The notes under the pieces were generated by a model. That model was not told the DNA's origin and did not search any database. It saw only the letters and a list, made by a program, of their open reading frames with translations. Position numbers and translations under genes: made by a program. From a virus (lineage: Duplodnaviria > Caudoviricetes): a stretch of DNA of 64,000 nucleotides. Below, piece after piece: positions 28,762 to 44,725 of the stretch. Within the stretch, counting starts at the first letter, position 1. Every line of letters begins with the position of its first letter. The DNA is taken from the IMG/VR virus record IMGVR_UViG_2775507096_000001, positions 1-64,000 of that record, one strand, 5' to 3'.

Positions 28762-28793
28762 ACACCCCACCCCGCCAGGAAAGGGAGCCCGCC

Positions 28794-29119: not shown

Positions 29120-30172
29120 ATGGAACAGCTCGACCTGTTCGCCGAGCTCGGCGAACCCGAAGCGCCGAAGCCGGGGAAGACGATCACCCTGCCGAAGCCG
29201 ACCGCCGGCCAGTACGCCACCACAGTGGCCAAGCCGTCGCAGCCGCAGCAGCCGGCCCTCATCCCGCAGGCCCCGCCCCGCCCCCGGCCGGAGTTCAGCA
29301 TCCGCCCCGCCGACGGCCCCACATTCGGTGAGGCCGTATCCACGGCCTGGCATCGGGCGCACGGCGGGAACCGCATGGAGATCCCACTCGGCATCGTCGC
29401 GACCCTCGCCCTGTGGCCACTGAAGGGACACCCGCGGACCCTCGCGAGGTTCTTCAAGGGCCTGGACGCCCAGCAACTCATGTCCTGTGTCCGGGAGGTA
29501 GCCGCCTACTGGTGGATGCGGCGACCCGACCTGATCGACACCGCCTCGGTCCTGTTCCGCTGGGCGGAGGAGGACCGGCACACGCCGAACGAGCTGGCAG
29601 CGATCCGGGCCACGTTCCACGCAGCGCTGGACCACAACGCCCTCGACCGCACCGGGCACGCGGACCCGGAGGCAAACAGCTGGATCGACCTGATGTCGTG
29701 GACGGTCACCAGCCTGCGTCACAACACGGCACGGCAGGGCCTCGGCGAGTACCACACGCCGCCCGAGGTGTGCGACATGATGGCCGCGCAGATCATCGGC
29801 GACGACCGCGAGGCGATCCGCGAGGGCTACTCGATCCTCGACCCGTGCGCCGGCACAGGCGGCATGGTCCGCTCCGCCGCCCAGCACCTGCGGGGCATGG
29901 GCCTGGACCCCGCCAAATTCACCTGGTTCGCGCAGGAGATCGACCCTCTGGCCGCAGCCGGGTGCGCCGTCAACATGATCGTGTGGGGGATGGGCCCGAA
30001 TGCCCTGGTGGCCTGCGGTGACACCTTGGCCGAAGGCGACCTCTGGCCCCGCGCCGTCGAGCACCGCCGCATCATGGTCGAGCGCAGGGATGACGCCGCC
30101 GCTCACATGGCCATCGTCCACGCGGTGGGTCGCGTGGAGCAGCTGGTCAACGGGGGCTCCCGGGCTGCCTGA
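29120..30172 (+). CDS. HsdM/N-6 DNA methylase-like protein lacking the NPPF motif
   Basis: GEYHTP, ILDPCAGTGGM, QEID, GDTL present; ends without NPP(F/Y); N-terminal QLDLF. Confidence 0.8.
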   Translation: MEQLDLFAELGEPEAPKPGKTITLPKPTAGQYATTVAKPSQPQQPALIPQAPPRPRPEFSIRPADGPTFGEAVSTAWHRAHGGNRMEIPLGIVATLALWPLKGHPRTLARFFKGLDAQQLMSCVREVAAYWWMRRPDLIDTASVLFRWAEEDRHTPNELAAIRATFHAALDHNALDRTGHADPEANSWIDLMSWTVTSLRHNTARQGLGEYHTPPEVCDMMAAQIIGDDREAIREGYSILDPCAGTGGMVRSAAQHLRGMGLDPAKFTWFAQEIDPLAAAGCAVNMIVWGMGPNALVACGDTLAEGDLWPRAVEHRRIMVERRDDAAAHMAIVHAVGRVEQLVNGGSRAA

Positions 30173-30260
30173 GCTGGGCTTCCTTGTCCGACATTTTACT
30201 GAATCGACTTGTTAAAACTGGCTAGGTCAAGCCGATTCGGAAAGAATGAGAGCAGTTCAA
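30170..30260 (+). repeat. Array repeat R4
   Basis: Starts at the upstream TGA stop; arms 30201-30211 and 30228-30238. Confidence 0.9.
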
Positions 30261-30294
30261 CCCCCACCCCACCCGCGCGAAAGGAAGGCCCCGA

Positions 30295-31842
30295 ATGGCC
30301 GCCGCACCTCACTCCACCGCGATCGCCCGCGTCCTGCGCGGTCTCGGCCTCACCCAGGGCAAGGGCTGCGACTTCCGTGTCACCGGCGACTACCGCAACG
30401 GTGAGCGGATCGGCACGTTCGTCGTCGTCCTCACCCGCCACGCGGAAGAGGTGATCGCCGAGCACGCCGACGAAATTGAGCGCCTGTCGGAAGAGGCCGG
30501 CTGGCCGTTCCATGTGTCGGTCCGCTACCACGACCGCGAGCGCCCGATGGTGACCGTTGCCAACTACGGCAGCCGCGTGCGTGAGGAGCCCCCCGTGAGC
30601 GCTGTGACCGCCGAGCCCGCCGAGGCCGCCGAGGCCGAGACCGTCGAACCCGCGGAGGTGGCCGTCGAGGCCGCGCACGAGGAGACGGCCGTACGGCCGG
30701 CGATCGTACCCGCCGTCCTCGGCTGGCTGTGGGCCGACGACCACGCGGCCACGGTGTCCTCGCCCCTGCGCGACATGATCCGCAGCAAGGAGTGCGACAA
30801 GTACGGGCGCCCGACGAAGGCCGCGTTCGAGCGGATCGCCGCCGAGCTGAACGCGCTCCCCGCCGACCCGGCCGCGCTCGCCCAGCTGTGGGCCGACGAC
30901 CACCGCGCCCCGGTGTGCTCGCCCCTGCGAGACATGGTCCGGGGCGACGAGTGCGACGACGGCGGGCAGCCGACGATGGTCGCGTTCGAGCGGATTGCGG
31001 CCGAGGTGAAGGCGCTGGCCCTCCCCGTGGCGGAGCCCCGCTCTGAGGAGAGCGGGCCGCGCGCGCTGCCCCCGGCCGAATCCGAGCCCGCAGCCGAGGA
31101 GGCACCCGACGACCTGAAGGCGCTGCGCCTGGAGCGGGCGCAGTCGGAGGCGCTGGGCTGGTCGCGAGGGCAAGCCGAGCTGGTCGCCGCCGCGGCGGCC
31201 GGACAGCTGTACCGGGACTTTGGCGCCGTCCTGCGGACCGTGCCCGTGCCGGGGCATCCCGGCCGGGTGGCGTCCATGCACCGGCTCGGGCCGCTGGTCG
31301 ACGCCGGGTTCCTGGCCGTCGACGAGCCCGACCCCACTGGCCGGCGTGCCGTCCGCGTCACCGCCGACGGCCGCCACGCCCTGGCCGTGTGGAAGCGGTG
31401 GCGGCCCTGGCCGGTGGAGAAGACCCGCAGCGAGGAGACCGAGAAGCTGCGTCCTCTCCTGCACGGAGCGCAGGCCAGACGGATCGCCGCCCTCGCCCGC
31501 GAGGAAGAGAAGAATCGGCGACGCGAGAGCGAGGAACTGTGGGCGGCGACGCGGCGGCTGCACGAGTGGGAAGAACGCGAGGAACGTCTGCGGTCGGCGT
31601 GGGCGCGCGTGAACGGCGTCCGGAACCGGTTCCAGCGGCGGCCGGTCGGCTGGGTGCCGACCGACGCGGAGATCGCGGAGTACCGCCTCGCCCCGGATGT
31701 GGTAGCCGAGCTGCGGGCAGACGCCGAGAACCCGAAACCGAAGCCCGAGCTGCCATCCCCTCGGCGGAGCGCGGGCGCGGAGCTGCCACCCCTGGAGGCG
31801 GATGACCAGACACCCGAGCAAACCTCTTTGCCTATCTTTTAA
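30295..31842 (+). CDS. 515-aa hypothetical protein with an internal duplicated domain
   Basis: LWADDH..SPLRDM.R..ECD..G.PT..AFERIAAE twice; stop lies inside R5. Confidence 0.75.
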   Translation: MAAAPHSTAIARVLRGLGLTQGKGCDFRVTGDYRNGERIGTFVVVLTRHAEEVIAEHADEIERLSEEAGWPFHVSVRYHDRERPMVTVANYGSRVREEPPVSAVTAEPAEAAEAETVEPAEVAVEAAHEETAVRPAIVPAVLGWLWADDHAATVSSPLRDMIRSKECDKYGRPTKAAFERIAAELNALPADPAALAQLWADDHRAPVCSPLRDMVRGDECDDGGQPTMVAFERIAAEVKALALPVAEPRSEESGPRALPPAESEPAAEEAPDDLKALRLERAQSEALGWSRGQAELVAAAAAGQLYRDFGAVLRTVPVPGHPGRVASMHRLGPLVDAGFLAVDEPDPTGRRAVRVTADGRHALAVWKRWRPWPVEKTRSEETEKLRPLLHGAQARRIAALAREEEKNRRRESEELWAATRRLHEWEEREERLRSAWARVNGVRNRFQRRPVGWVPTDAEIAEYRLAPDVVAELRADAENPKPKPELPSPRRSAGAELPPLEADDQTPEQTSLPIF

Positions 31843-31904
31843 TGAATCCGCTAGTTAAAACTGGCTAGGGGAAGCCATATCGGAAAGAATGAAAGTAGTT
31901 CAAA
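31812..31904 (+). repeat. Array repeat R5 (degenerate arms)
   Basis: GAATCCGCTAG-TTAAAACTGGCTAGGG-GAAGCCATATC-GGAAAGAATGAAAGTAGTTCAAA. Confidence 0.85.
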
Positions 31905-31936
31905 ACACACCAACTCACCTAGAACGGGAGCAAGTT

Positions 31937-32614
31937 ATGGCCGCCGACCTCGCCCAGGTCTTCCAGTCCCTGTCCGCCACGTACACGCGCCGCGAAGAGG
32001 CCGCCCGCACAAAGCTCGCCGACTGCCTCATGGACCTCGGCGCGGCCGTCGACACCAGCTTGGTCCGCGCCGCCATGGACGCCGCAGCCGAAGCCCTGCC
32101 GTTCAAGATGGTCCTCACGCACGCCGAGACGGCCGGCATCCGCGAGGCCCTGGCCGACATACGGAAGCAGCTGACCCGCCAGCTGCTGACCCGCTCGCCC
32201 GGCTCCAGCACCTGCCAGATCCGCAACGAGGCCGCCCGCATGGAGATCGACGCCGCCCAGCACTTCCTGGCGACCACCGACGGCCTCCTGGAACGGTTCG
32301 ACGACACCCCGGCCGAGGAGGCCACCCCGCAGGCCGAGCCCGAGCCGGCTCCCGCGCCCGCCCCGGTAGACGCCCCGAAGGTGACCCCGGCTCAGAAGCG
32401 GACCCTGGAGGCCATCAGGGACAACGGGGTCAAGCTCCAGGAGATGAGGGTCGGACAGGCGATCGTCCAGGTCACCAACGGCATCAAGCCGCGCAAGGAC
32501 ATGGTCGAGTTCGCCATCAGCCAGGGCTGGGCCACGAAGGACACCTCCACCTCCCTGTACGTCGGCCAGAAGGTCCAGCTGACGGCCCTCGGCGAGGCCA
32601 TCCTGGTCGGCTGA
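31937..32614 (+). CDS. Hypothetical protein, possible C-terminal wHTH
   Basis: GGGAG RBS; VTPAQKRTLEAI...VQLTALGEAIL. Confidence 0.7.
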   Translation: MAADLAQVFQSLSATYTRREEAARTKLADCLMDLGAAVDTSLVRAAMDAAAEALPFKMVLTHAETAGIREALADIRKQLTRQLLTRSPGSSTCQIRNEAARMEIDAAQHFLATTDGLLERFDDTPAEEATPQAEPEPAPAPAPVDAPKVTPAQKRTLEAIRDNGVKLQEMRVGQAIVQVTNGIKPRKDMVEFAISQGWATKDTSTSLYVGQKVQLTALGEAILVG

Positions 32615-32806
32615 CCCGGGCCGGCCGGCCGGGCCTCCGCCCGGCCGGCCCCGCCCCACCCGCCCGGCCGTGCCGGGCCTCGCGCGGGACCGCTCTCCAC
32701 GCAGGCCGAACGCCCCGATCCGGCCACCTCACAGCCCAGTTCACGGAACCGACCACCACAACCACCCGGCAGGGCCCAACGCGCCCACCAGAAGGGACAC
32801 AGCCCC

Positions 32807-33286
32807 ATGACCACCGAACCCACCGACCTCCAGCTGAGGGCCCTCGCCATCATCGCGGCCGGCGACGTCCGCCAGTTCGCGGCCGTACCTCACCCGGTCT
32901 TCATCGACAGCCCCGGCGGCACGATCTCCCCGCCGACCGTCAACGAGCTGGTCCAGGCGGGCTGGGTCCGCGTCGACTCCACGCGCAGCCTCCACGACGG
33001 CCAGGCCGTCGAGATCACCCAGTCCGGCCTGGCCCACCTACCGGGCAACACCGTCCCGGACATCCCGCAGGCCGCTGACGACCCCACCGGCGACCAGGTC
33101 CTCGCCGCCCTCATGCGGACCGTCATCCGCCACGGCCAGGTCGGCGTCGACTTCCACGACGACCTGGTGGAGGTCACCGGCGCCGACGACACGGTCCTGG
33201 CCACCCTCAGGGGTCGTTTCGACAGCCCCGCCCAGCTCGCCCGATTCCTCGACATCGACGAGGACTGCATCACCGACGCCCGCTGA
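32807..33286 (+). CDS. Hypothetical protein, possible N-terminal wHTH
   Basis: TDLQLRALAII...LVQAGWV...VEITQSGLAHL. Confidence 0.65.
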   Translation: MTTEPTDLQLRALAIIAAGDVRQFAAVPHPVFIDSPGGTISPPTVNELVQAGWVRVDSTRSLHDGQAVEITQSGLAHLPGNTVPDIPQAADDPTGDQVLAALMRTVIRHGQVGVDFHDDLVEVTGADDTVLATLRGRFDSPAQLARFLDIDEDCITDAR

Positions 33287-33317
33287 TGCTGGCCGAGAAG
33301 GCGGAGGAAACCGCTTC

Positions 33318-33408
33318 TGGCCTGCGGCTTTTGGAAGTTTCTTTGCTGAACTAGCTTGTTAAAACTGGCTAGGGTAAGCCGATTCGGAAAGAATGAAAGT
33401 AGTTCAAA
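33318..33408 (+). repeat. Array repeat R6
   Basis: Arms 33348-33358 and 33375-33385. Confidence 0.9.
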
Positions 33409-33438
33409 CCACCCCACCAACTAGCGATTGGACGCGCT

Positions 33439-34641
33439 ATGACCACCGCCACCACCCCCAAGGCACCCGCCAAGAAGGCCCCGGCCGCGAAGAAGCCCGC
33501 CAGAAAGGCCCCCACGACCAAGGCGACGCCCGCGAAGAAGACCGTCCCCGCCCCGGCCGGCGACGAGAAGCGGACCCAGTTCCGCACCATCCCCATCGGC
33601 AAGATCGACCGCGACCCGGGCCAGCCCCGCGAGCACTTCGACGAGGCTGCGCTTCAGGAACTGGCCGCCTCCATGAAGAAGCTGGGCCAGCTCCAGCCGA
33701 TCAACGTCCGCTACAACGAGGACACCAAGCGGTACACGATCATCATGGGCGAGCGCCGCTGGCGGGCCGCCCAGATGGCCGGCCTCACCCAGATGAAGGC
33801 CGTCGTCATGCACGGTGTCGGCGACGGCCGCGAGACCTTCGCCATGGCCGTCGCCGAGAACGTCGGCCGCGCGGACATGACCCCCGTTGAGGAGGCGAAG
33901 GCCTTCCACAAGCTGGCCGAGGCCGGGTACACCGTCGACGAGATCGCCGAGCTGGTCGGCAAGTCCGCCGCGTACGTCCAGTGGCGGATCGACCTGCTGA
34001 ACCTGTGCCCCGAGGCGCGCGAAGCCCTGGTGAAGGGGCAGCTCCCGGTCGGCCTGGCCTGGTACGTCGGGAAGCTCGCCAACGCCAACCAGGTCCGGTT
34101 CCTGTCGAAGTGGGTCCGAGGTGACTTCAAGTCGGCCCGGGACGCCGAGAGCTTCGCGCAGGCCCTGCACACCGAGGAGAAGCGGCAGCAGGAACAGGGC
34201 AGCTTCTTCGTCCTGTCCGACGAGGCCGCCGCCTCCCGCAAGGACAAGGGGCAGGACTCGCTGCCCGGTTCCCTCGACCTGCCCGACGAGGAGCGCGACC
34301 GCATCCTGGCCGACCGCTCGAAGCTGGTCGGGAAGATCGAGAAGCTCGGCCAGGTCGGCGAGATCCTCTCGCTGCTCGCCGCATCGGACCCGGAGGAACT
34401 CGCCCTGCTGCTCGCCGGCACGCCCGGTGGCATCGGCGGCCACCGCCTGCGGATCAAGCACCTCCAGGACATCGCGACCAAGGCCATGGCCAACCTGCGG
34501 AAGGCCGAGATGGTGGCCGAGGTCCGCGCGAGCGGCCTGACCGTCAACCCCGACGCCGAGGCCGCCGCCACGGCCGCCGAGGACGACGACGCCGAGGCTG
34601 CCACCCCGGCCGCCGCCGGCGACGCCGAAGCCGCCGCCTGA
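33439..34641 (+). CDS. ParB/RepB/Spo0J family protein with histone-H1-like N-tail
   Basis: QPREHFDEAALQELAASMKKLGQLQPI, GERRWRA, ENVGRADM, HTH; KAPAKKAPAAKK tail. Confidence 0.92.
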   Translation: MTTATTPKAPAKKAPAAKKPARKAPTTKATPAKKTVPAPAGDEKRTQFRTIPIGKIDRDPGQPREHFDEAALQELAASMKKLGQLQPINVRYNEDTKRYTIIMGERRWRAAQMAGLTQMKAVVMHGVGDGRETFAMAVAENVGRADMTPVEEAKAFHKLAEAGYTVDEIAELVGKSAAYVQWRIDLLNLCPEAREALVKGQLPVGLAWYVGKLANANQVRFLSKWVRGDFKSARDAESFAQALHTEEKRQQEQGSFFVLSDEAAASRKDKGQDSLPGSLDLPDEERDRILADRSKLVGKIEKLGQVGEILSLLAASDPEELALLLAGTPGGIGGHRLRIKHLQDIATKAMANLRKAEMVAEVRASGLTVNPDAEAAATAAEDDDAEAATPAAAGDAEAAA

Positions 34642-34695
34642 CACCCACCCCAGCGGCCCCGCCCCGAGGGCGGGGCCCACCCCCAGGAGCAGCGA

Positions 34696-35025
34696 GTGAT
34701 CGACATCGAAGCCAGTCCCCAGCTCACCTCGGAAGAGACCGAGGCAGCCGCCCGCCTGATCGCCCTCGCCGAGGCCCTCGGCCTCGAACCGCTTGACCTC
34801 GACGAAGCGGTACACGACGCCGCCGCCCGCTACGCCAGCGACGAGAGCAACACCGGCTCGTGGGACGACGTCGACTCCGACGCCGCCTACGACGAAGCAG
34901 GCAGGCAGGCCGCCGACCTCAACAACAGCGGCATGGACAACCAGATCCGCTACCTGGTGGCCCAGTGCGGCGCCGACCGTACCGAAGTCCACATCCGGGC
35001 CGCCGCCGGCCAGCACCACGCCTGA
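34696..35025 (+). CDS. Acidic hypothetical protein
   Basis: AGGAG RBS; D/E-rich. Confidence 0.65.
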   Translation: MIDIEASPQLTSEETEAAARLIALAEALGLEPLDLDEAVHDAAARYASDESNTGSWDDVDSDAAYDEAGRQAADLNNSGMDNQIRYLVAQCGADRTEVHIRAAAGQHHA

Positions 35026-35097
35026 GACCCGCCCACAGCGCGGCGCACCGCACCCCTGCGGTGCGCCCCCTTCCACCCCTCCAAGGAGACAGAAGCC

Positions 35098-35397
35098 ATG
35101 AAGGACCCCGTCAGCTTCCACAACCTGGACGTGCCCCCCTTCACTCCGTACGACATCGCGAAGGCCGCCCTGACGTACCTCGGCGACCAGTGGGGGGCAG
35201 ACCCCGGCCCCTGGGCCACCACCGGCCACCTCCGGGCCTGGGACGGCACCCCGTTCACCATCGGCGCCCAGCCGACCGGCGAGCTGTTCCTGCGCAACGA
35301 CCAGCTCGGCGACACGCTCGCGCTGCCGGTCAAGCCGACCGACGACCTCGACACCATCGCCCGCGCGGTCGACGAGACCGTAGGCCACCTCTACTGA
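35098..35397 (+). CDS. Hypothetical protein
   Basis: AAGGAG RBS. Confidence 0.65.
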   Translation: MKDPVSFHNLDVPPFTPYDIAKAALTYLGDQWGADPGPWATTGHLRAWDGTPFTIGAQPTGELFLRNDQLGDTLALPVKPTDDLDTIARAVDETVGHLY

Positions 35398-35447
35398 TCT
35401 AAGCCCCGTTCAGGGGGTCAGACCCCTATCCATCCAGGAGGAGTCCG

Positions 35448-36275
35448 ATGGAGATCCCAAGCGGCGTCTACGACGTCCTCACCGACGAGCGCACGGTCAT
35501 CGCCGGCGACCGCGTGCAGATCCCGTTCGAGCTGGACAGCGCCGTCTACAAGCAGGTGAACAAGATGCTGAAGGAGATCGGCGGCCGGTGGGACGGCCGA
35601 ACTGCGGTCCGCGCTCACGTCTTCCCGTTCGAGGTGGAGGCGTTCATGCGGGCCTGCCTCGCCACCCGCGAGTTCCCCACCCGGTACGAGCAGGGCTGGT
35701 ACCCGACCCCGCCGCGGGTGGTGGACGAGATGCTGGCCCACGCGGGCATCAGCGAGGGCATGAGCGTCCTGGAGCCCTCGGCGGGCACCGGCTCCATCGT
35801 GGGCCCGGCCGCCGAGTGCGGCGCGGTCGTCGACTGCGTCGAGATCGACGAGCGGCGCGTCGCAGTCCTCCGCGAGCAGGACGCCGCCCGCCGTATCGTG
35901 CACGCTGACTTCCTCGACCTGGACCCGCTCGACTGCCCCCACGGCTACAGCAGAGTGCTGATGAACCCGCCGTTCGCGGCGGCCGTGCAGCACGTGAAGC
36001 ACGCGCTGGGCTTCCTCGACGACGACGGCACGCTCGTCGCGGTCATGCCCGAGTCGGTGATGTGGCACAGCGACCGGGCCACCGTCGAGTTCCGTGAGCT
36101 GATCGCCCTCGCCGAGGGCACCTTCGCCCCGCTGCCCGACGACTCGTTCGCGCCGTCCGGGGCGAACGTGCGCACCGTCCTCCTGGTGGTCGACGCCGAG
36201 GCCGGCGGACCGCTGCCCACTCACGGCTGGCACCACAGCCAGCCCCGCCAGCTCGACCTGTTCATCACCCCCTGA
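35448..36275 (+). CDS. Amino (probably N6-adenine) DNA methyltransferase
   Basis: YPTP, VLEPSAGTG, EID, DF, NPPF; C-terminal QLDLF. Confidence 0.85.
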   Translation: MEIPSGVYDVLTDERTVIAGDRVQIPFELDSAVYKQVNKMLKEIGGRWDGRTAVRAHVFPFEVEAFMRACLATREFPTRYEQGWYPTPPRVVDEMLAHAGISEGMSVLEPSAGTGSIVGPAAECGAVVDCVEIDERRVAVLREQDAARRIVHADFLDLDPLDCPHGYSRVLMNPPFAAAVQHVKHALGFLDDDGTLVAVMPESVMWHSDRATVEFRELIALAEGTFAPLPDDSFAPSGANVRTVLLVVDAEAGGPLPTHGWHHSQPRQLDLFITP

Positions 36276-36360
36276 CCAGCGTCTCTTTTGGACTTCTTTA
36301 CCGAATCAGCTTGTGAAAGCTGGCTAGTGCAAGCCGATTCGGGGAGAATGTAAGTAGCAC
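36273..36360 (+). repeat. Array repeat R7
   Basis: Starts at the upstream TGA; arms 36303-36313 and 36330-36340. Confidence 0.88.
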
Positions 36361-36385
36361 TACCCGCAGACCGGAAAGGACGAGG

Positions 36386-36805
36386 ATGGACCTCGCCACC
36401 TGCACCTACCAGGAGTTCACGCCCGAGATGGGCGCTCCGATCCGCACCACCGCAGGCCACCCCAGATTCACGCTCGGCTACGAACTGCGCGGCCACGCCC
36501 GGCTCATCACACCGACTCGGGAACTGCTCGCCCAGAACCTCCCCCAGGACGCGTACGAGTTCAGCTACCGGCGCATCCTGAACGGCCACGGCATCGACCG
36601 CATCTACGCCGAACTGGCCGGCCTCGCCGGCCGCAACGGCGGTGCCCGCCTGGTCCTGCTCTGCTTCGACCGCCTCGACAAGCTGCCCCCGGCGGACGCC
36701 TGGTGCCACCGGCTGCACTTCGCGAAGTGGTGGCTGGAGCAGACCGGCGAGCCGATCCCCGAACTCGGCGCCCAGCGGCCGACCCCGCCGCCCTCCCTCT
36801 TCTGA
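36386..36805 (+). CDS. DUF488-like protein
   Basis: LVLLCFD...WCHR motif. Confidence 0.65.
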   Translation: MDLATCTYQEFTPEMGAPIRTTAGHPRFTLGYELRGHARLITPTRELLAQNLPQDAYEFSYRRILNGHGIDRIYAELAGLAGRNGGARLVLLCFDRLDKLPPADAWCHRLHFAKWWLEQTGEPIPELGAQRPTPPPSLF

Positions 36806-36829
36806 CCACCACCCCACAAGGAGGACGCC

Positions 36830-37009
36830 ATGCCCGGCGCCTACTGCACGTTCTGCCGCCGCCGCTGCTTCGTCTACCGGATCATCCCCGACGGGCCCCG
36901 GAAGGGATGGGCGGGGCACCTCGCCACCTGCGCCCGCGGCATGGCGCACGACCGCGAGCAGACCGGGCACGACCACACGACGGCCATCAACCCGGCCCAG
37001 AGCCACTGA
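36830..37009 (+). CDS. Small Cys/His protein
   Basis: AAGGAGG RBS; CTFCRRRC...HLATC (not in ORF track). Confidence 0.6.
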   Translation: MPGAYCTFCRRRCFVYRIIPDGPRKGWAGHLATCARGMAHDREQTGHDHTTAINPAQSH

Positions 37010-37022
37010 CACAGCCAGCACG

Positions 37023-37353
37023 ACCAGCCGGCCGGAACCCCATGGGGTCCCGGCCGGACCCACACCCGAAAGGAATGAAGCCGTGAGCACAACCCAGGCC
37101 CGACCCGAATCGAACCCGGCCGGTGACGAACTCCTCGCTGGCGTCATCGCCCGCATCGGCTCCTGGGGCGCCCTCGGCGTCATGCGTTCCGCCGTCGAGC
37201 TGTACGGCGAGAACGGCGACCCGAACGACGTCCTGAGCGACACCCAGGTCGAACAGCTCGCCGCGCTCGCCAAGTACTTCGACCAGGCCTGACGACCGCC
37301 ACCAGCCGGCCGGGACCCCACGGGATCCCGGCCGGACTCACACCCGGAAGGAA
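37023..37353 (+). repeat. 53-bp hairpin+RBS direct repeat pair (37023-37075, 37301-37353)
   Basis: ACCAGCCGGCCGGRACCCCAYGGGRTCCCGGCCGGACYCACACCCGRAAGGAA. Confidence 0.8.
37083..37292 (+). CDS. Small hypothetical protein between direct repeats
   Basis: AAGGA RBS, GTG start. Confidence 0.6.
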   Translation: MSTTQARPESNPAGDELLAGVIARIGSWGALGVMRSAVELYGENGDPNDVLSDTQVEQLAALAKYFDQA

Positions 37354-37357
37354 CGCC

Positions 37358-37744
37358 ATGCGCCACCGCGAGGGCTGCAAGGGCCCGCACCTCAACCCCG
37401 GAGAGACCGCCATCCCGGCCGGCGACGTCCGCAAAGGCGACATCGTGCTCGCCGCCACGATCGAGCTGAACGGCCACACCGACCGGCTCGACCACGCCAC
37501 CCCGTACACCGCCGACCCCCGGCCCGACGACCCCGGCTGCGGCTGCGCCGGACACCGCAGCCTCACCGCCGAGGACCGCGCGAAGCCACTCGTCGTCCTG
37601 TACGACGGCCCGATCTGGGACGGAGCGTGCGACGTCGTCCCCGCCGACGCGCTCGTGATCATCCGCGAGCGCGCCGAGGAACGCCCCGCCCCGTCGCGCG
37701 AGCAGAGCGGCATGGATGTGCTCCGCGACCTGCTCCGCCTCTGA
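37358..37744 (+). CDS. Hypothetical protein
   Basis: AAGGA RBS. Confidence 0.65.
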   Translation: MRHREGCKGPHLNPGETAIPAGDVRKGDIVLAATIELNGHTDRLDHATPYTADPRPDDPGCGCAGHRSLTAEDRAKPLVVLYDGPIWDGACDVVPADALVIIRERAEERPAPSREQSGMDVLRDLLRL

Positions 37745-37813
37745 CCAGACCACCACGACGGGCGGGACGCCTCGATGTCCCGCCCGTCGCCCATACCCGG
37801 AAGGAACGAACCC

Positions 37814-38437
37814 TTGAGCGAGATCGAGACCAGAGTCTGCATCGACGACACGCTCGGCCCGTACGACGCGCGGCTGGACCCCGGCCGCCGCTGGAACGGC
37901 TTTCTGATGCCCCGCTTCACCCTCGACACCGTCCGCCGGCTCTCCGTCCGGACGCTGGAACTGGCGGACGAGTACGGCTACGACTCCGTGGAGACGGTGC
38001 ACGTCATCGACGGCTACTCCGACAGCCCGAGCAGCGTCCACTTCATCGAGGGCGGCACCGACCGCGAGGGCAACCCGAGGGGGGCCGTCGCGCACATCCG
38101 CTGGCCGTTCCTCGATGAGGACCCCGACAGGGCCGTGTCGTTCTTCACCGGCCGCCCCGGCGCCCAGGTGAAGCCCGTGGAGCCCGCCGCGGTGGGCGTG
38201 CGCCGCACGGTCGTGTTCACCATGAGCTGGCAGTGGTGGGAGGAAGACCGGGGCGCTGAAGGAATCGCCGACGTCTACCAGCCCGACGATGAGTGCCGCT
38301 ACGGCATCGGCGGCGGCTCGTGGTGCTGGCACTTCGCCGGCTGGTGGTGCGCCTGCGGCAGGGACAACGACTGGCACGTCCTAAAGTGCCCGAGCTGCGA
38401 ACTGCCCCGCGACGCCCAGCCTGCGAAGACCACCTGA
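37814..38437 (+). CDS. Hypothetical protein with C-terminal Zn ribbon
   Basis: WWCACG...CPSC. Confidence 0.65.
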   Translation: MSEIETRVCIDDTLGPYDARLDPGRRWNGFLMPRFTLDTVRRLSVRTLELADEYGYDSVETVHVIDGYSDSPSSVHFIEGGTDREGNPRGAVAHIRWPFLDEDPDRAVSFFTGRPGAQVKPVEPAAVGVRRTVVFTMSWQWWEEDRGAEGIADVYQPDDECRYGIGGGSWCWHFAGWWCACGRDNDWHVLKCPSCELPRDAQPAKTT

Positions 38438-38465
38438 CCTCTCCCACCCCAGCAAGGAGCAAGTT

Positions 38466-38732
38466 GTGCCCATGATCGCCGCCTTTCCGGCCGAGAAGTG
38501 CACCGTCCGGCTCGTCAGCCTCGCCACCGGCGAGGAGATCAAGCCCGGCCAGTTGATCCCCGAGCCGTACGGGCGCGGGCAGATCACCTACCTCGGCCCC
38601 ACCGTCACCCGCGCGGAGGGCGCCAAGAAGGGTCGGCCCGGTCGGGTCGCGGTCGTCCGGTACTCGTCACCGGAAACCGACTGGGTGTTCCTGCCCGCCG
38701 AGCTGAACGCCCGGTACGAAGACCTCGTCTGA
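38466..38732 (+). CDS. Hypothetical protein
   Basis: AAGGAG RBS; stop is the first 3 nt of R8. Confidence 0.65.
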   Translation: MPMIAAFPAEKCTVRLVSLATGEEIKPGQLIPEPYGRGQITYLGPTVTRAEGAKKGRPGRVAVVRYSSPETDWVFLPAELNARYEDLV

Positions 38733-38821
38733 CCTGCGGTTTTCTTAGAAGTTCTTTTACTGAATCGGCTTGTTAAATCTGGCTAGGGTAAGTCGATTCA
38801 GGAAGAATGATCTTGATCCAA
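38730..38821 (+). repeat. Array repeat R8
   Basis: Arms 38762-38772 and 38789-38799. Confidence 0.9.
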
Positions 38822-38852
38822 CCACCACCCCGACCAGCGACCGGGAGACCGC

Positions 38853-39374
38853 ATGCGCGCCAACATCCGCCGCACCACCCTCGACGCCCTCCACGCCGAC
38901 GCGGACGCCGCCCTGGCCCAGCTCAACATCGACGCGGACGCTGCCTACATCTGGACCCTCACCATCTGGCAGCCCGGCCAGCCCACCACCGAGCGCACCG
39001 AACTGGTCCCCGGCCGTGAACTCGCCACGCTGGTCCGCGTCCAGCTCCTCACCTCCATGCACGAGATCGAGCAGGACGAGACCACCGGCACGATCACCAC
39101 CCGCTGGACCCGGCAGAGCAAGCGGAACAACTACCGCACCCAGCAGGCAGTGTTCGCGAAGCTCAGCGACGGCCAGGCCGCCACCCTGACCGCCCGCGCC
39201 GCCTCCACCCCCCACACCCCCGCCCACGCGCTCGACGACCCCGCCCGGTTTGTCAGCCGCCGCGTCCTGGCCCCCGCCCCGGCCGCCCGGCCCCGGGCCA
39301 CCGTCCCCGCCCGCCCGAAGGTCTGCGACCGCTGCTTCCAGGTGCCCGCCGCCAACGGCACCTGCGGCTGCTGA
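38853..39374 (+). CDS. Hypothetical protein with C-terminal Cys cluster
   Basis: GGGAG RBS; CDRC...CGC. Confidence 0.7.
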   Translation: MRANIRRTTLDALHADADAALAQLNIDADAAYIWTLTIWQPGQPTTERTELVPGRELATLVRVQLLTSMHEIEQDETTGTITTRWTRQSKRNNYRTQQAVFAKLSDGQAATLTARAASTPHTPAHALDDPARFVSRRVLAPAPAARPRATVPARPKVCDRCFQVPAANGTCGC

Positions 39375-39446
39375 CCTCCCACCCCGCCCAGCCGGCGCCG
39401 CCCCGACCGGGGCGGCGCCCACCCATGCCAGCAAGGAGAGAACGAC

Positions 39447-41195
39447 GTGCCCTACATAGACGCCACCACGCGCGCCATGGCGGCGGCGTCCACCGCCACC
39501 ACCCCCAGCCCCGCCCGCGCGTACAAGCACGACGGCAGCGTGCTGACCGCCATGAGCTGGTTCTGCGGGGCCGGCGGCGATACACAGGGCGCCGACGCGG
39601 TCCCCGGCGTCCAGGTCACCAGAGGCGCGAACCACTGGGACGTCGCGCTCGCCACCCACGCCTGGAACAACCCGCACTGCGACCTGTGGAAGGGCGACAT
39701 CCGCCGGGCCCCGGTCGAGAAGTGGCCGGTCTGCCAGCTGTTCTGGGCGTCGCCCGAGTGCCCGAAGTGGTCGGCGGCCCGAGGTGTGAAGGTCGACTTC
39801 GACCGCACGCTGCAAGGCGACTTCGACTTCGACGAGCCCGAGTTCAAGAGCGAGAAGGAGCGCCGGGCCGCCGAGGAGCGCAGCCGCGCCCTCATGGAAG
39901 AAGTCCCGATGTACCTGCGGGGCGTCATCAACCGCGGCGGCCTGGTCCTCGGCGGAGTCGTCGAGAACGTCATTGACTGCCGGGGCTGGGACCAGTGGGA
40001 CCGCTGGGTCGGCGAGTTCCACAAGCTCGGGTACCGGACCAAGCTCCTGGCGATCAACTCGATGCACGTCGCCCCCCGCACTCTCGACCGCGTCCCACAG
40101 TCCCGCGACAGGCTGTACTTCGTCTACTGGCACGAGAGCCTGGGCCGAGACCCCGACTTCGACAAGTGGGTGCTGCGGCCGGACGCCTGGTGCTACGACT
40201 GCGAAGAGCAGGTCCGCTCAGTCCAGGTCTTCCGCAAGCCCGGCAAGGACATGGGCCGCTACCGGCAGAGCTACGACTACCGCTGCCCCCGCTCGGACTG
40301 CCGGGCGGTTGTTGAGCCGTACGTCCTCCCCGCGGCGGCTGCCATCGACTTCACGATCCCGGGAACGCCGATCGGCGACCGCGAGAAGACCGACGACTGC
40401 CCCGAGGGCCTGGCCCCGGCCACGATCGCCCGCATCCGGGCCGGCGGCTCCAAGTACTGGGGCTGGGGCGCGGACTTCCACCAGCTGGACGGGCAGGACT
40501 CGCTGTTCGGCGACGTCGACGAAGAACAACTGCCTGAGGCCCCTGGCAGCCCGCTCCTCGTCCCAGCCGGCGGGACCTGGCGGGACAAAGCCATCCACCT
40601 TGGCCAGCCCATGCCGACCAGGACGACGGTCGAGACCGACGGCATCGCCTTCCCGCCCCTGCTGATCCCCTGCGAGGGCCGCACCGGAAAGAAGGCCATG
40701 CGGCTGGAAGACCCGCTGCGCACCCAGACGGCCCGAGCCGAGACCGCCCTCGCCTACCTCCCGTTCGTGGTCCCCATGCGGGGCGGCGGCGACAAGGAGA
40801 AGGCCCGTCACATCGGCCACCCACTCCACACCGTCTCGGCCGGCGGCAACCACCACGGCCTGGTGACCGCCCCGGATCACCTCCTCGTCCCGTACTACGG
40901 CAACGGGCAGGCCCGCCCGGTCACCGACCCGATCGGAGCGCTGCCCACCCGGGACCGCTACGCGCTGGTCAGCCGGGACTTCCGGATCGACGACGTCCTG
41001 TTCCGGATGCTCCAGCCCGAGGAGATCAAGAAGGCGATGGCGTTCAGGGGGAAGTACAAGATCCTGGGCTCCAAGCGGCACCAGGTGCGTCAGCTCGGCA
41101 ACGCGGTCACCCCGGCGGTCGCGGAAGTCCTGTACTGCGCGCTGGTCGAGTGCATCACCGGCGAGGAGATCGACCGGTACGCGATGGTCGCCTGA
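39447..41195 (+). CDS. DNA (cytosine-5) methyltransferase
   Basis: FCGAGG, SPEC (catalytic Cys), ENV, QSRDR, GNAV; internal QDSLF. Confidence 0.9.
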   Translation: MPYIDATTRAMAAASTATTPSPARAYKHDGSVLTAMSWFCGAGGDTQGADAVPGVQVTRGANHWDVALATHAWNNPHCDLWKGDIRRAPVEKWPVCQLFWASPECPKWSAARGVKVDFDRTLQGDFDFDEPEFKSEKERRAAEERSRALMEEVPMYLRGVINRGGLVLGGVVENVIDCRGWDQWDRWVGEFHKLGYRTKLLAINSMHVAPRTLDRVPQSRDRLYFVYWHESLGRDPDFDKWVLRPDAWCYDCEEQVRSVQVFRKPGKDMGRYRQSYDYRCPRSDCRAVVEPYVLPAAAAIDFTIPGTPIGDREKTDDCPEGLAPATIARIRAGGSKYWGWGADFHQLDGQDSLFGDVDEEQLPEAPGSPLLVPAGGTWRDKAIHLGQPMPTRTTVETDGIAFPPLLIPCEGRTGKKAMRLEDPLRTQTARAETALAYLPFVVPMRGGGDKEKARHIGHPLHTVSAGGNHHGLVTAPDHLLVPYYGNGQARPVTDPIGALPTRDRYALVSRDFRIDDVLFRMLQPEEIKKAMAFRGKYKILGSKRHQVRQLGNAVTPAVAEVLYCALVECITGEEIDRYAMVA

Positions 41196-41285
41196 CCTGC
41201 GGTTTCCTTAGAAGTTCCTTTACTGAATCGGCTTGTCAAAACTGGCTAGGGCAAGCCGATTCGGGCAGAATGAAAGTAGTTCAAA
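41193..41285 (+). repeat. Array repeat R9 (perfect 11-bp arms)
   Basis: GAATCGGCTTG 41225-41235 / CAAGCCGATTC 41252-41262; starts at the upstream TGA. Confidence 0.9.
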
Positions 41286-41318
41286 AACACACCAACCTGC
41301 ACAGAAGGGCAGCGAGCC

Positions 41319-41522: not shown

Positions 41523-41658
41523 CCGGCCGGACGGCCCCCGGGCCGTCCCCTGAGCAGGCGGCGTGACGGGCCCCGGCCCGGTGCGCGCCGCCCGCTCAGG
41601 AACCGTCAGCCGCCCCACCCGGGGTCGGCACACCACCACACCCAGAAGGAGCCACCGA

Positions 41659-42672: not shown

Positions 42673-42757
42673 CCGCACCGCGGGCCGGGGAGCAGGCAGC
42701 GCCCCCCGGCCCCAGCCCGACCAGCTACCACCAGCACACACGAAGGGACCCACCCGT

Positions 42758-43150
42758 ATGACCGGCAAAGCCTTCTGGACCGAATACTTCGAGGACGCCT
42801 ACCGCGACGCCGCCAAGAAGCGGCGCGAACTCCTCGACCGCGGCCTGCTCCTGATCACCCACCTGATCCGCGAGGAACTGCCAACCGCTACCGCCATCAG
42901 CGTCAACGGCAGCGTCCTGACCACCGTGCACGACGGCGAGACCGTCCTCTGGCGGTTCAACGACGAGACCAGCAGCAAGCTGAACGACGCCACCCGGCGG
43001 CACGTCCGGGACACGCTGCTCGACATGCGTAGCTTCCACACCACGGCATCGCTCCTCGCAGCCGACTGGAAGCAGGTCACGGACCTGCTCGACACGCTGC
43101 GCGTCGACCTTCCCGCCGACCCCGACCGGGACCAGCAGCCCCGCCCGTAG
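42758..43150 (+). CDS. Hypothetical protein
   Basis: AAGGGA RBS. Confidence 0.7.
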   Translation: MTGKAFWTEYFEDAYRDAAKKRRELLDRGLLLITHLIREELPTATAISVNGSVLTTVHDGETVLWRFNDETSSKLNDATRRHVRDTLLDMRSFHTTASLLAADWKQVTDLLDTLRVDLPADPDRDQQPRP

Positions 43151-43225
43151 CCGGCCAGCACACCAGGGCCGGGGAGCAGGCAGCGCACCCCGGCCCCGCC
43201 ACCCAACCCCCGGAAAGGGAAACCT

Positions 43226-43924
43226 GTGAACGACTTCCCGAAGACAGCCGTGATCCGAGCGGCGGCCATCTTCACCGCCGCGTTCAACGCCGTCTACGAC
43301 GAGGACGACTGGCTGACCATCGGCGTCGACAACGGCACCGGCGCCGAGGTCAACGTCACCGGCTCGCTGTACGACGGAGCAATCCGCTTCGACCCAGCCG
43401 ACGTCGTGATGCTCCTGGACTTCCTCACCCGCGTCCTGGCCAAGGACGAGTCCCGGTACAACCCGTACGGCATCGTCGCCGTCACCGTCCCCAACGGCGA
43501 CGGCGAACCCAACGCATGGGCCTGGCACCTGCTGCACATGACCCCCCTGACCCACGACCAGTCCCGCAGCTGGCTCGGCGGCGAGGTCCGCTACAACGAC
43601 GGCCTCACCCTGGCACCCGACCAGGTCCGCAGCCCCGACAACACCGCAGTCACCGAAGAGGTACGCGAGATCCTCCGCGCGCGCGGCCTCACCGCACGAC
43701 GCCTGCCGGAACACCCGATGGAAGACCCCGACCACGACTGCGGCACCTGCTCCGCCGACCACCGGCCGATCGTGCCGCCCATGGTCGGCATCGGTCCGTA
43801 CTGCGCGTGCGGCTGGACCCCCCGCAACGGCTACAGCATCCACGACCACCTGAAGGACCAGGGCGCCTGGCCGCCCGCCCCCATCGAGCACTCGCCGCGC
43901 GGCCACTTCGGTCCCCGCCCGTAG
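43226..43924 (+). CDS. Hypothetical protein
   Basis: AAAGGGA RBS; C-terminal Cys/His. Confidence 0.7.
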   Translation: MNDFPKTAVIRAAAIFTAAFNAVYDEDDWLTIGVDNGTGAEVNVTGSLYDGAIRFDPADVVMLLDFLTRVLAKDESRYNPYGIVAVTVPNGDGEPNAWAWHLLHMTPLTHDQSRSWLGGEVRYNDGLTLAPDQVRSPDNTAVTEEVREILRARGLTARRLPEHPMEDPDHDCGTCSADHRPIVPPMVGIGPYCACGWTPRNGYSIHDHLKDQGAWPPAPIEHSPRGHFGPRP

Positions 43925-44044
43925 CCGGCCAGCACACGAGGGCCGGGGAGCAGGCAGCGCTCCCCGGCCCTCACGCCTGTTCTACCGCCCCACCAGACCG
44001 CAGACCACCACCACCCCCGACCCCGACGAGATAGGACGTCACAG

Positions 44045-44725
44045 ATGGCCACAGGATGGACGATCCGCCCGATCCGCCTGCCCGACGAGCACCTGCCCAC
44101 CGGCACCCGCGAGGGCGACTGGCAGTGCAGGGCCTGCGCCACGCCCTGGCCCTGCGAGACCGCCGGCGAGTTCCTGCGGCAGGGCCGCTGCACCTGCGGC
44201 GCCACCACCTGGTGGGAGACCCGAGGCCCACGGAACTGGCACGTCGGGCCCCGCTGCTACACGGCGACCGACGTCATCGTGCGCCAGGCCGCCGACCTGA
44301 AGGCGTACCGGGAGGCGCACCCGCACTACCCGCCGTCCCACTACTACCCGCCCAAGCCCAGGCGCGTCCGCCGGCAGAAGCCGCCGCACCGGCACCGCCC
44401 GGCCGCGCCCGGCGACATCCGCCCCGGCACCTGGACCTGGGTCAAGCCTGGAGCCCTGCACCCCGGCTGGGGCGACATCCACCAGCACGCCATGATCACC
44501 CGGCCCGGCCTGCCCAAGTGCGAGGTGTGGCTGACACTCGACGGCACCGTGCACGACGTAAAGGCAGACCAGCTCATCCTGGCCGGCAGGCCCCGCAAGG
44601 ACCGGCCCGCCTGGTGGGAATGGACGGTCGCCGCTCACCTCAACCACGACAGACCCGCAGCCCAGGAGAGCGGGAACCATACCGCGGTCCAACTGGACCT
44701 GCTCAGCGGCCACACGGACGTCTAA
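44045..44725 (+). CDS. Hypothetical Cys/His-rich protein
   Basis: CRAC..WPC, CTC; C-terminal QLDLL. Confidence 0.65.
   Translation: MATGWTIRPIRLPDEHLPTGTREGDWQCRACATPWPCETAGEFLRQGRCTCGATTWWETRGPRNWHVGPRCYTATDVIVRQAADLKAYREAHPHYPPSHYYPPKPRRVRRQKPPHRHRPAAPGDIRPGTWTWVKPGALHPGWGDIHQHAMITRPGLPKCEVWLTLDGTVHDVKADQLILAGRPRKDRPAWWEWTVAAHLNHDRPAAQESGNHTAVQLDLLSGHTDV

What the first reader, a model, noticed from the sequence alone, without database searches (positions are those of the whole stretch)
29120..44725. Beta-clamp-binding motifs in all three cassette methyltransferases
Seen: QLDLF at the N-terminus of the HsdM-like protein (29126-29140), QLDLF at the C-terminus of the NPPF MTase (36249-36263), QDSLF in a linker of the C5 MTase (40494-40508) and QLDLL at the end of 44045-44725. 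Weaker variants occur in ParB (QGSFF) and the DUF488-like protein (PSLF). Known: QL[S/D]LF is the DnaN-binding consensus. Inference: the MTases ride the sliding clamp to modify nascent phage DNA, or titrate the host clamp.
Basis: partly seen in the sequence, partly recalled or inferred. Interest (0 to 1): 0.75.

Follow-up and report, generated by a model that had tools for sequence, protein, structure and literature searches.

The report
Clamp-docking tags on phage DNA methyltransferases
A 99-kb Streptomyces prophage puts the short peptide that replication proteins use to grip the DNA sliding clamp on its DNA-methyltransferase-type proteins and at least three other accessory proteins, which suggests, without any binding test yet, that phage DNA modification is coupled to the host replication fork much as DNMT1 is coupled to PCNA in animals.

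Summary
QLDLF, the strongest known beta-clamp-binding peptide, sits at residues 3-7 of an HsdM-like protein and 4 residues from the end of an NPPF methyltransferase. QDSLF sits in a loop of a C5 methyltransferase.

- **Chance:** 0.008 QLDLF are expected in the whole 98.7-kb provirus; 2 are seen.
- **Conservation:** 97/120 HsdM-like homologs start M(x)Qxx[LI]F (87 QLDLF). 111/120 NPPF homologs end Q-x-x-L-F. Q, L4 and F5 are fixed, position 3 is free and the flanks vary.
- **Add-ons:** proteobacterial NPPF homologs lack the tail, and more distant C5 homologs lack the loop.
- **Disorder:** AlphaFold2 predicts both modelled tag segments to be disordered.
- **Other families:** three more carry terminal tags (30295-31842, the DUF488-like protein, 44045-44725). 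Sixteen neighbouring families carry none.
- **Replication:** the provirus encodes no polymerase or clamp.

Corrections: the HsdM-like family lacks catalytic motif IV in 0/113 members and is probably not an active methyltransferase. ParB QGSFF looks structural.

DnaN binding itself was not tested. I found no paper describing clamp-tagged bacterial or phage methyltransferases. An unchecked scan note (e1-5865049) reports similar tags on other DNA.

The parts
29120..30172 (+). HsdM-like 'half methyltransferase', 350 aa, with N-terminal tag QLDLF (29126-29140, residues 3-7) on a roughly 65-residue disordered Pro/Ala-rich leader
   Evidence: Pfam N6_Mtase 4.2e-12, matching profile positions 20-117 only. 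97/120 homologs begin M(x)Qxx[LI]F, 87 of them QLDLF. 0/113 have [NDS]PP[FYW]. In the AF2 model residues 1-65 are coil with pLDDT about 50; the core has pLDDT >90 with 3 Rossmann strands followed by a long helix. The best PDB fold matches are HsdM subunits. SD GGAGG lies upstream.
30295..31842 (+). 515-aa protein of unknown function (phrog_15616 N-domain; long homologs carry DUF3560) ending QTSLPIF* (31819-31839), a variant of the family's C-terminal EQL[DGS]LF tag
   Evidence: PHROG hit 1e-36. DUF3560 in the 1019-aa homolog L021. All 23 true homologs in related loci carry Q[LM]xL[FLW], 22 of them within about 10 residues of the C-terminus.
33439..34641 (+). ParB (N-domain + HTH). QGSFF at 34195-34209 is probably structural. 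A second, weak candidate GQDSLPG lies at 34252-34266 in a variable linker
   Evidence: Pfam ParB_N 1.2e-24 and HTH_ParB 2.2e-12. The alignment of 54 homologs shows QGSFFVL conserved together with its flanks, and the linker motif Q[DE]x[LIM][PFLY]G.
35448..36275 (+). Stand-alone amino-methyltransferase, 275 aa, with motif I EPSAGTG and motif IV NPPF (35964-35975), carrying a 27-aa C-terminal tail that ends RQLDLFITP* (tag 36249-36263)
   Evidence: PHROG DNA-methyltransferase families. 111/120 homologs end Q-x-x-L-F, 89 of them QLDLF. Q268, L271 and F272 are invariant in A1. Proteobacterial homologs of 245-250 aa stop before the tail. The Leu codon varies synonymously: CTG 24, CTC 11, TTG 2, CTT 1.
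36386..36805 (+). DUF488-N3a-like protein, 139 aa, ending PPPSLF* (36788-36802)
   Evidence: Atlas feature match 0.94 to DUF488-N3a clusters; phrog_2450. 31/32 homologs end in LF or LW within the last 8 residues (PPxLF, PPTLFDF, QGGLW, QMSLFDTE, QPALF). The same tail occurs on a TraB conjugative plasmid without capsid genes.
39447..41195 (+). C5 cytosine DNA methyltransferase, 582 aa, with QDSLF (40494-40508) in an inserted disordered loop
   Evidence: Pfam DNA_methylase 2e-11. Motifs FCGAGG, SPEC, ENV, QSRDR and GNAV are invariant in A2. The loop GQ[DGE][SAT]LFGD is present only in about 40 closest homologs and absent from more distant ones. 30/36 homologs in related loci keep the tag. In the AF2 model residues 340-366 are coil with pLDDT <50.
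44045..44725 (+). Cys-rich 226-aa protein of unknown family with QLDLL (44690-44704) 6 residues from the C-terminus
   Evidence: No Pfam or PHROG hit. 6/6 homologs in related loci carry a Qxx[LM][FLW] motif: five have QLDLF, QEALF or QQALF at or near the C-terminus, while the sixth (L031) has no tag in its last 30 residues. Representatives that keep the C-terminus have QGELF, QTGLF, QAELF or QEALF.
24314..41279 (+). Nine copies of an 86-nt AT-rich repeat (starts 24314, 25345, 28670, 30170, 31813, 33317, 36272, 38731, 41194) that split the region into cassettes. Four tagged genes are each the last gene before the next repeat
   Evidence: the repeat finder family D1.

Best explanation
The short Q-x-x-L-F peptides are genuine beta-sliding-clamp (DnaN) binding motifs. 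A family of Streptomyces temperate phages and phage-plasmids has grafted them, independently, onto at least six unrelated accessory proteins: an HsdM-like half-methyltransferase, an NPPF amino-methyltransferase, a C5 methyltransferase, a DUF488-type protein, a DUF3560-associated protein and a Cys-rich protein.

The element has no polymerase or clamp of its own, so the host replisome copies it and leaves DnaN rings on the new DNA. The tags sit on flexible leaders, tails or loops. They would dock into the hydrophobic cleft of DnaN and so concentrate the DNA-modifying or anti-restriction enzymes on freshly replicated, still unmodified element DNA. That is a bacterial counterpart of DNMT1-PCNA coupling.

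Shown here: motif identity, conservation, position, predicted disorder, independent gain, and the absence of polymerase and clamp genes. Inferred: physical binding to DnaN and its functional consequence.
For: 1. QLDLF is the consensus and the tightest-binding clamp peptide (PMC11139829). It occurs twice where 0.008 are expected.
2. Conservation across hundreds of homologs follows the measured tolerance of the motif. Q1, L4 and F5 are essentially invariant, position 2 is mostly L, position 3 is free (D/G/A/S/N/H/E), and residues after F vary.
3. The tags are add-ons. The NPPF tail is absent from proteobacterial homologs, and other Streptomyces homologs carry different tails that again end QDGLF, QPTLFDL or EEQLTFDL. 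The C5 loop is clade-specific.
4. AF2 models place the two modelled tags in coil of low pLDDT: N-terminal residues 1-65 (about 50) and loop 340-366 (<50).
5. Tagged families contrast with 16 neighbouring families that have no such motif in the same loci.
6. Host DinB in three genomes carrying related elements has a single TQEDLFAQ directly after the polymerase core, the same 'dialect'.
7. No Pol A, B or C and no DnaN domains are found in the CheckV-complete record.
8. The DUF488 tail persists on a capsid-less conjugative plasmid.
9. There is a precedent: phage Mu MuC binds the clamp through an N-terminal QHDLF (bioRxiv 10.1101/2025.01.04.631326).
10. Synonymous codon variation within the motif argues for selection at the protein level.
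Against:
- The C5 tag has G, D or E instead of L at position 2.
- The DUF488 tag usually lacks the Gln (PPxLF).
- The window's own copies of two families carry weaker variants (QTSLPIF, QLDLL).
- Close phage C5 homologs without the loop are also orphan prophage genes, so the tag is not required for a phage methyltransferase to work.
- The HsdM-like protein is probably not catalytic, so 'methylating nascent DNA' cannot be the whole story.
- An unidentified element-encoded hub recognising the same peptide is not excluded.
Confidence: 0.6

Rival explanations
1. The tags do bind DnaN, but their main purpose is to compete for or titrate the host clamp. That could block host clamp clients such as NucS-type mismatch repair, translesion polymerases or regulators of replication initiation, or reprogramme host replication. 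In this reading the tags do not serve to position the enzymes on DNA.
For: Six or more proteins carrying a near-optimal peptide are expressed from nine repeated promoter-like elements. Over-expressed MuC depletes the clamp and deregulates initiation through its clamp-binding motif. The HsdM-like protein seems catalytically dead, so its tag cannot be there for its own catalysis.
Against: The element has no polymerase or clamp of its own and needs a working host replisome. A single small inhibitor would suffice for titration, yet the tag is attached to DNA-acting enzymes through flexible tethers, which is the typical layout for recruitment.
Confidence: 0.12
2. The peptide is a docking signal for a different, element-encoded or host partner that merely resembles the clamp motif. 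Candidates include a scaffold that co-packages or co-transfers anti-restriction proteins with the DNA, as in virion-delivered polyvalent proteins, or a ParB-centred complex.
For: In proteobacterial phages the same NPPF methyltransferase domain sits inside proteins annotated as virion, internal or structural. Several unrelated proteins sharing one terminal peptide is also what a sorting signal looks like. ParB is encoded in the same cassettes.
Against: The peptide is identical to the optimal clamp ligand, and its substitution profile matches clamp-binding data. The DUF488 tail is retained on a TraB conjugative plasmid without capsid genes. The tag sits at an N-terminus, at C-termini and in an internal loop, which is unusual for packaging signals. 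No candidate receptor was identified.
Confidence: 0.15
3. The motifs are chance occurrences or ordinary structural elements of the folds and have no docking role.
For: Overall QxxLF frequency in the record (3 seen, 1.65 expected) is not itself unusual. ParB QGSFF does look structural.
Against: Two exact QLDLF are seen against 0.008 expected. The motifs are invariant in over 100 homologs each while their flanks drift. They lie in predicted disordered segments that are absent from distant homologs. They are enriched in the element relative to three whole genomes.
Confidence: 0.03

Closest known systems
Bacterial beta-clamp clients with a terminal or internal clamp-binding motif (Pol II QLGLF, Pol IV QLVLGL, UmuC QLNLF, Hda N-terminal QLSLPL, Pol III alpha internal QADMF; consensus QL[SD]LF, Dalrymple 2001; review PMC11139829)
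   Same: The pentapeptide is the same. It has the same preference for termini or flexible linkers and the same tolerance profile (Q1, L4 and F5 critical; position 3 free).
   Different: The known clients are polymerases, repair proteins and replication regulators. The 2024 review lists no DNA methyltransferase (0 occurrences of the word). Here the carriers are accessory proteins of a mobile element, several in one element, and binding is not demonstrated.
DNMT1-PCNA coupling in eukaryotes (PIP box; Iida 2002, cited in PMC9690074)
   Same: A DNA methyltransferase is tethered by a short peptide to the replication sliding clamp, so that newly made DNA is methylated promptly.
   Different: The clamp is different (PCNA against DnaN), the motif is different (PIP box), and the proteins are not homologous. 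Here the enzymes are phage- or plasmid-encoded orphans that presumably serve anti-restriction, not epigenetic maintenance.
Phage Mu late activator MuC (N-terminal QHDLF; bioRxiv 10.1101/2025.01.04.631326)
   Same: A temperate-phage protein with a near-consensus N-terminal clamp-binding motif that uses the host clamp. Over-expression titrates the clamp.
   Different: MuC is a transcription factor and a single protein. Here the carriers are methyltransferase-type and other DNA-acting accessory proteins, in Actinobacteria, across six families.
Virion-delivered or polyvalent anti-restriction proteins (P1 DarB type; F116/H66-type internal proteins carrying the same NPPF methyltransferase domain)
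   Same: They solve the same problem, getting a protective DNA-modifying enzyme onto element DNA early. The NPPF domain is homologous, at 30-34% identity.
   Different: Delivery there is by fusion into large packaged proteins. Here the domains are separate small genes, each with its own clamp-type tag.

Membership tests
Beta-clamp (DnaN) binding-motif clients | Pentapeptide or hexapeptide matching Q-[L/x]-x-[L/M]-[F/L] (consensus QL[SD]LF) | tested here: met
   QLDLF occurs twice, with QDSLF and QLDLL. The DUF488 tail PPSLF lacks Q, so it meets the pattern only partly.
Beta-clamp (DnaN) binding-motif clients | Motif lies in an accessible, flexible terminus or linker | tested here: met
   The tags are at residues 3-7 and at 4-7 residues from C-termini. 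AF2 shows coil with pLDDT about 50 for residues 1-65 of the HsdM-like protein and <50 for loop 340-366 of the C5 enzyme.
Beta-clamp (DnaN) binding-motif clients | Motif conserved while its flanks diverge (short-linear-motif behaviour) | tested here: met
   111/120 NPPF homologs, 97/120 HsdM-like homologs, about 40 C5 clade members, 23/23 in the 30295 family and 31/32 DUF488-like homologs.
Beta-clamp (DnaN) binding-motif clients | Physical binding to the hydrophobic cleft between DnaN domains II and III | not testable with these tools
Beta-clamp (DnaN) binding-motif clients | Function depends on the motif | not testable with these tools
   This needs LF-to-AA mutants and methylation or restriction-escape assays.
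Type I HsdM / N6_Mtase (PF02384), for 29120-30172 | SAM-binding motif I and motif X (xYxTP) | tested here: met
   GEYHTPP and DPCAGTGG align to HsdM 7vru. Fold matches are to HsdM structures 3lkd, 7vs4 and 2okc.
Type I HsdM / N6_Mtase (PF02384), for 29120-30172 | Catalytic motif IV (N/D/S)PP(F/Y/W) on Rossmann strand 4 | tested here: not met
   0 of 113 family members have it. The model has only three Rossmann strands, followed by helix 309-349.
Amino-methyltransferase (N6A/N4C), for 35448-36275 | Motif I (ExxxGxG) followed by motif IV NPPF | tested here: met
   E109 P110 S111 A112 G113 G115 and N173 P174 P175 F176 are invariant or nearly so in A1. PHROG DNA-methyltransferase families match. 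DNA rather than RNA as substrate is inferred from context.
C5 cytosine DNA methyltransferase (PF00145), for 39447-41195 | Motifs I (FxGxG), IV (catalytic Cys), VI (ENV), VIII (QxRxR), X (GNAV) | tested here: met
   F39 G41 G43 G44, S102 P103 E104 C105, E173 N174 V175, Q218 R220 R222 and G551 N552 A553 V554 are invariant in A2. The Pfam hit is above the cut-off. Motif IV reads SPEC rather than the usual PCQ.
DUF488 (N3a subclade), for 36386-36805 | Significant match to PF04343/PF22751 | tested here: inconclusive
   There is no Pfam hit even at E<=5. The language-model feature search gives 0.94 with 221/256 shared features to DUF488-N3a clusters.

The most novel reading that the evidence does not exclude
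A whole anti-restriction and DNA-modification toolkit of actinobacterial phage-plasmids is organised around the host sliding clamp. At least six unrelated protein families have convergently acquired consensus clamp-binding peptides. DnaN rings left on newly replicated element DNA would then serve as the landing pad that marks 'new, unprotected DNA' for methylation and other protective chemistry. This would be the first replication-coupled DNA-modification system described in bacteria or phages, analogous to DNMT1-PCNA. It would include a catalytically dead HsdM-like clamp rider that may act as a decoy against Type I restriction.
Probability: 0.45. Interest if true: 0.8.

Novelty: new variant of a known kind. 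Interest (0 to 1): 0.7.

Why it matters
- **Timing of protective methylation.** Bacterial DNA methylation is generally thought to follow replication by free diffusion of the enzyme. A clamp tether would give a mechanism for how a mobile element gets its DNA modified before host restriction enzymes act.
- **New clamp clients.** It would add an entirely new class of clients, DNA-modifying and anti-restriction proteins, to the beta-clamp interactome.
- **Convergent evolution.** It is a clear case of convergent evolution of a short linear motif: N-terminal, C-terminal and loop insertions in six families.
- **Annotation.** It suggests a simple sequence rule for spotting replication-coupled accessory proteins in actinobacterial mobile elements.
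- **Testability.** The idea is directly testable with peptides, Streptomyces DnaN and griselimycin as a cleft-blocking probe. It also bears on side effects of clamp-targeting antibiotics on phage-host conflicts.

Tried and rejected
- **Complex prediction.** It gave no result and counts neither for nor against binding.
- **Phage collection.** Megablast of the region against deposited phages found nothing. tblastn found only proteobacterial phage homologs without the tail, so no cultured model phage was identified.
- **QKGLF at 9321-9335.** This fourth in-frame QxxLF lies upstream of the only possible start codon, so I dropped it.
- **ParB QGSFF.** I rejected it as a docking peptide because it is conserved together with its flanks. 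The ParB linker motif GQDSLPG is left as undecided.
- **Host DinB control.** The first attempt, looking at the last 60 residues, found nothing. The motif lies further in, directly after the polymerase core.
- **R-M versus orphan contrast.** I tested the idea that only restriction-modification-associated C5 enzymes lack the tag. The loop-less homologs examined are also orphan prophage genes, so the idea was dropped.
- **DNA-level explanation.** I considered that the QLDLF-coding DNA might be a regulatory element. I rejected this because the tag occurs in three different gene positions and its codons vary synonymously.
- **Literature.** Searches for clamp-tagged bacterial or phage methyltransferases found none. 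The library does not hold most subscription journals.

Full report
**What the DNA is.** The window is 70.5% G+C. It is the first 64 kb of a 98,756-bp IMG/VR provirus record that CheckV rates complete. Its nearest deposited relative is the 103.5-kb circular Streptomyces plasmid pSITFR-21c, which carries phage head genes and is therefore a phage-plasmid. Region 24-45 kb is cut into cassettes by nine copies of an 86-nt AT-rich repeat. The cassettes encode ParB, three methyltransferase-type proteins, a ChlI/Lon-like protein and many small proteins without a family.

**The observation.**
- QLDLF is at residues 3-7 of 29120-30172.
- QLDLF is at residues 268-272 of the 275-aa protein 35448-36275.
- QDSLF is at residues 350-354 of 39447-41195.
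- QLDLL is six residues from the end of 44045-44725.

The ATG at 29120 is the true start. It has a GGAGG 6 nt upstream, the in-frame upstream stretch looks like out-of-frame translation, and annotated homologs begin MEQLDLF.

**Chance.** In 107 GC3-supported proteins (26,258 residues) of the whole record, 0.008 QLDLF are expected and 2 occur (P about 3.5e-5). Only three QxxLF occur in coding frames, and all three are in the methyltransferase-type genes. Three 8-9.6 Mb Streptomyces genomes carrying related elements have only three QLDLF-coding 15-mers each. Five of those nine lie inside the 20-kb element windows. The other four are out of frame or internal to large metabolic enzymes.

**Conservation.**
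- *NPPF enzyme.* Of its 120 best homologs, down to 44% identity and spanning Streptomyces, Nonomuraea, Embleya, Kitasatospora, Actinomadura and Streptosporangium, 111 end in Q-x-x-L-F two to four residues before the stop. Of these, 89 are QLDLF and 11 QLGLF. Most of the nine exceptions look like fragments or have frame-shifted ends. Q268, L271 and F272 are invariant in a 55-sequence alignment.
- *HsdM-like protein.* Of 120 homologs, down to 37% identity, 97 begin M(x)Qxx[LI]F (87 QLDLF). A Pro/Ala-rich segment with no sequence conservation follows.
- *C5 enzyme.* Only the roughly 40 closest homologs (58% identity or more) contain an inserted loop GQ[DGE][SAT]LFGD, with Q, L and F invariant. 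More distant homologs have no loop or a different one.
- *Substitution profile.* Q1, L4 and F5 are fixed, position 2 is mostly L, and position 3 is free. This is the profile measured for clamp peptides in the 2024 review, which also names QLDLF as the tightest-binding consensus (PMC11139829).
- *Codons.* The Leu4 codon varies synonymously (CTG 24, CTC 11, TTG 2, CTT 1), so selection acts on the peptide.

**The tags are add-ons to the catalytic domains.** A scan of 185,579 species genomes returned 80 loci. Proteobacterial and other distant NPPF homologs (245-250 aa) stop right after the methyltransferase core. The actinobacterial clade has a 27-residue extension ending in the tag. Divergent Streptomyces homologs have unrelated, longer tails that again end QDGLF, GQPTLFDLLDEAS or EEQLTFDLGEAS.

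AlphaFold2 with family alignments puts both modelled tags in disordered coil. Residues 1-65 of the HsdM-like protein have pLDDT about 50 against >90 for the core. Loop 340-366 of the C5 enzyme has pLDDT <50, between helix 324-338 and strand 370-373.

**The tag is not restricted to methyltransferases.** I compared all called proteins of 57 related actinobacterial loci with the window's proteins and found three more tagged families.
- *30295-31842.* This protein has a phrog_15616 N-domain, and long homologs carry DUF3560. Its family ends ...EQL[DGS]LFxx(x) in 22 homologs, and a 23rd has the motif internally. The window's copy ends QTSLPIF, which resembles the hexapeptide type.
- *DUF488-N3a-like protein 36386-36805*. 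31 of 32 homologs end PPxLF, PPTLFDF, QGGLW, QMSLFDTE or QPALF.
- *44045-44725.* Most of its relatives that keep the C-terminus have QLDLF, QEALF, QGELF, QAELF or QTGLF near the end.

Sixteen other families in the same loci have no such motif at all. Further unrelated small proteins in the Nonomuraea, Planomonospora, Planotetraspora and Streptosporangium loci also end in QxxLF.

**Host context.**
- The record has no family A, B or C DNA polymerase and no beta-clamp domain. Host machinery, and therefore host DnaN, presumably replicates it.
- In three host genomes that carry related elements, DinB has exactly one such motif, TQEDLFAQ, directly after the polymerase core. I take this to be the expected position for the DinB clamp-binding motif, from my own knowledge of mycobacterial DinB1.
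- A DUF488-like homolog on a TraB-type conjugative plasmid without capsid genes keeps the tail (...PAAPALFDTK). This argues against a capsid-packaging signal.

- The HsdM-like protein is not a complete methyltransferase. None of 113 full-length family members has a (N/D/S)PP(F/Y/W) motif. It aligns to HsdM only from motif X to GDTL. Its confident model has three Rossmann strands followed by a 40-residue helix. Its best structural matches are HsdM subunits, at a query-normalised TM-score of only 0.35-0.43. It may bind SAM or act as an HsdM decoy; that is speculation.
- ParB QGSFF is conserved as QGSFFVL together with its flanks and looks structural. A second ParB linker motif, Q[DE]x[LIM][PFLY]G, is undecided.
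- The loop-less C5 homologs I examined are also orphan prophage genes, so a phage methyltransferase does not need the tag.

**Interpretation.** The best reading (about 0.6) is that these are real DnaN-binding motifs that recruit DNA-modifying and anti-restriction proteins to clamps on newly replicated element DNA.
- A titration or hijack role needs the same binding. Phage Mu MuC is the precedent: its N-terminal QHDLF binds the clamp and depletes it when over-expressed.
- A different receptor, such as a packaging or transfer scaffold, cannot be excluded. In proteobacterial phages the NPPF domain sits inside proteins annotated as virion or internal.
- Chance is effectively excluded.

Binding itself was not tested.

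**Novelty.** Clamp-binding motifs and many of their clients are well known. Full-text searches found no bacterial or phage DNA methyltransferase described as a clamp client. The 2024 clamp review does not contain the word methyltransferase, and the only methyltransferase-clamp pair in the 2022 review is DNMT1-PCNA. I therefore class this as a new variant of a known kind. One unchecked first-reader note of this scan (e1-5865049) reports similar tags on cargo proteins of another genome.

Noticed in passing
window 29120-30172: The HsdM-like family lacks catalytic motif IV in 0/113 members. Its model shows a half Rossmann fold ending in a 40-residue helix. It may be a SAM-binding or HsdM-decoy protein rather than an enzyme.
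   Followed up: partly
window 24314-41279: There are nine copies of an 86-nt AT-rich repeat. The repeat ends in ...GAATGAAAGTAG, which supplies the start of the 'MKVVQNTP' N-termini of several ORFs (25421, 28746, 31889). The tagged genes 29120, 30295, 35448 and 39447 each end at the next repeat, and the QTSLPIF end of 30295-31842 is encoded inside the repeat copy at 31813.
   Followed up: partly
window 11127-12500: A 457-aa protein with a weak N-terminal HTH_36 hit ends ...PQDGTPPF*. This resembles the acidic-PPF C-terminal tail of actinobacterial SSB, from my own knowledge. It may be a second kind of replisome-docking tag.
   Followed up: no
window 45907-47433: A protein with Pfam DAM-like-phage1 plus GNAT-phage-like domains (E 2e-106 and 8e-58), probably a DNA hypermodification enzyme, carries no clamp-type tag. 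Other first-reader notes link it to an upstream tRNA.
   Followed up: no
P0002-P0121 C-termini; L007-L044: After the tag, most NPPF tails end in small hydrophobic residues (FALA, FAAA, DFAA, FAMA). This is reminiscent of ssrA-type LAA ends and might be a protease degron that clamp binding would mask.
   Followed up: no
window 33439-34641 (34252-34266): The variable ParB linker holds a semi-conserved Q[DE]x[LIM][PFLY]G motif: QDSLPG here, and QDRLF, QEPLF, QEGMF in relatives. It could be a weak clamp motif.
   Followed up: partly
L032, L037, L039, L040, L044 (Planomonospora, Planotetraspora, Nonomuraea, Streptosporangium loci): Several further small proteins with no homolog in the window also end in QxxLF (VQDALFT, DQPALF, VQTSLFG, AQLDLFVQEVA). 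This suggests that clamp-type tagging is widespread in accessory genes of actinobacterial mobile elements.
   Followed up: partly
phage records H12-H26 (Pseudomonas phages H66, F116, phiC725A and others): The homologous NPPF methyltransferase domain lies inside proteins annotated as structural, internal virion or PLxRFG-domain proteins. It is delivered as part of large virion proteins rather than as a tagged stand-alone enzyme.
   Followed up: no
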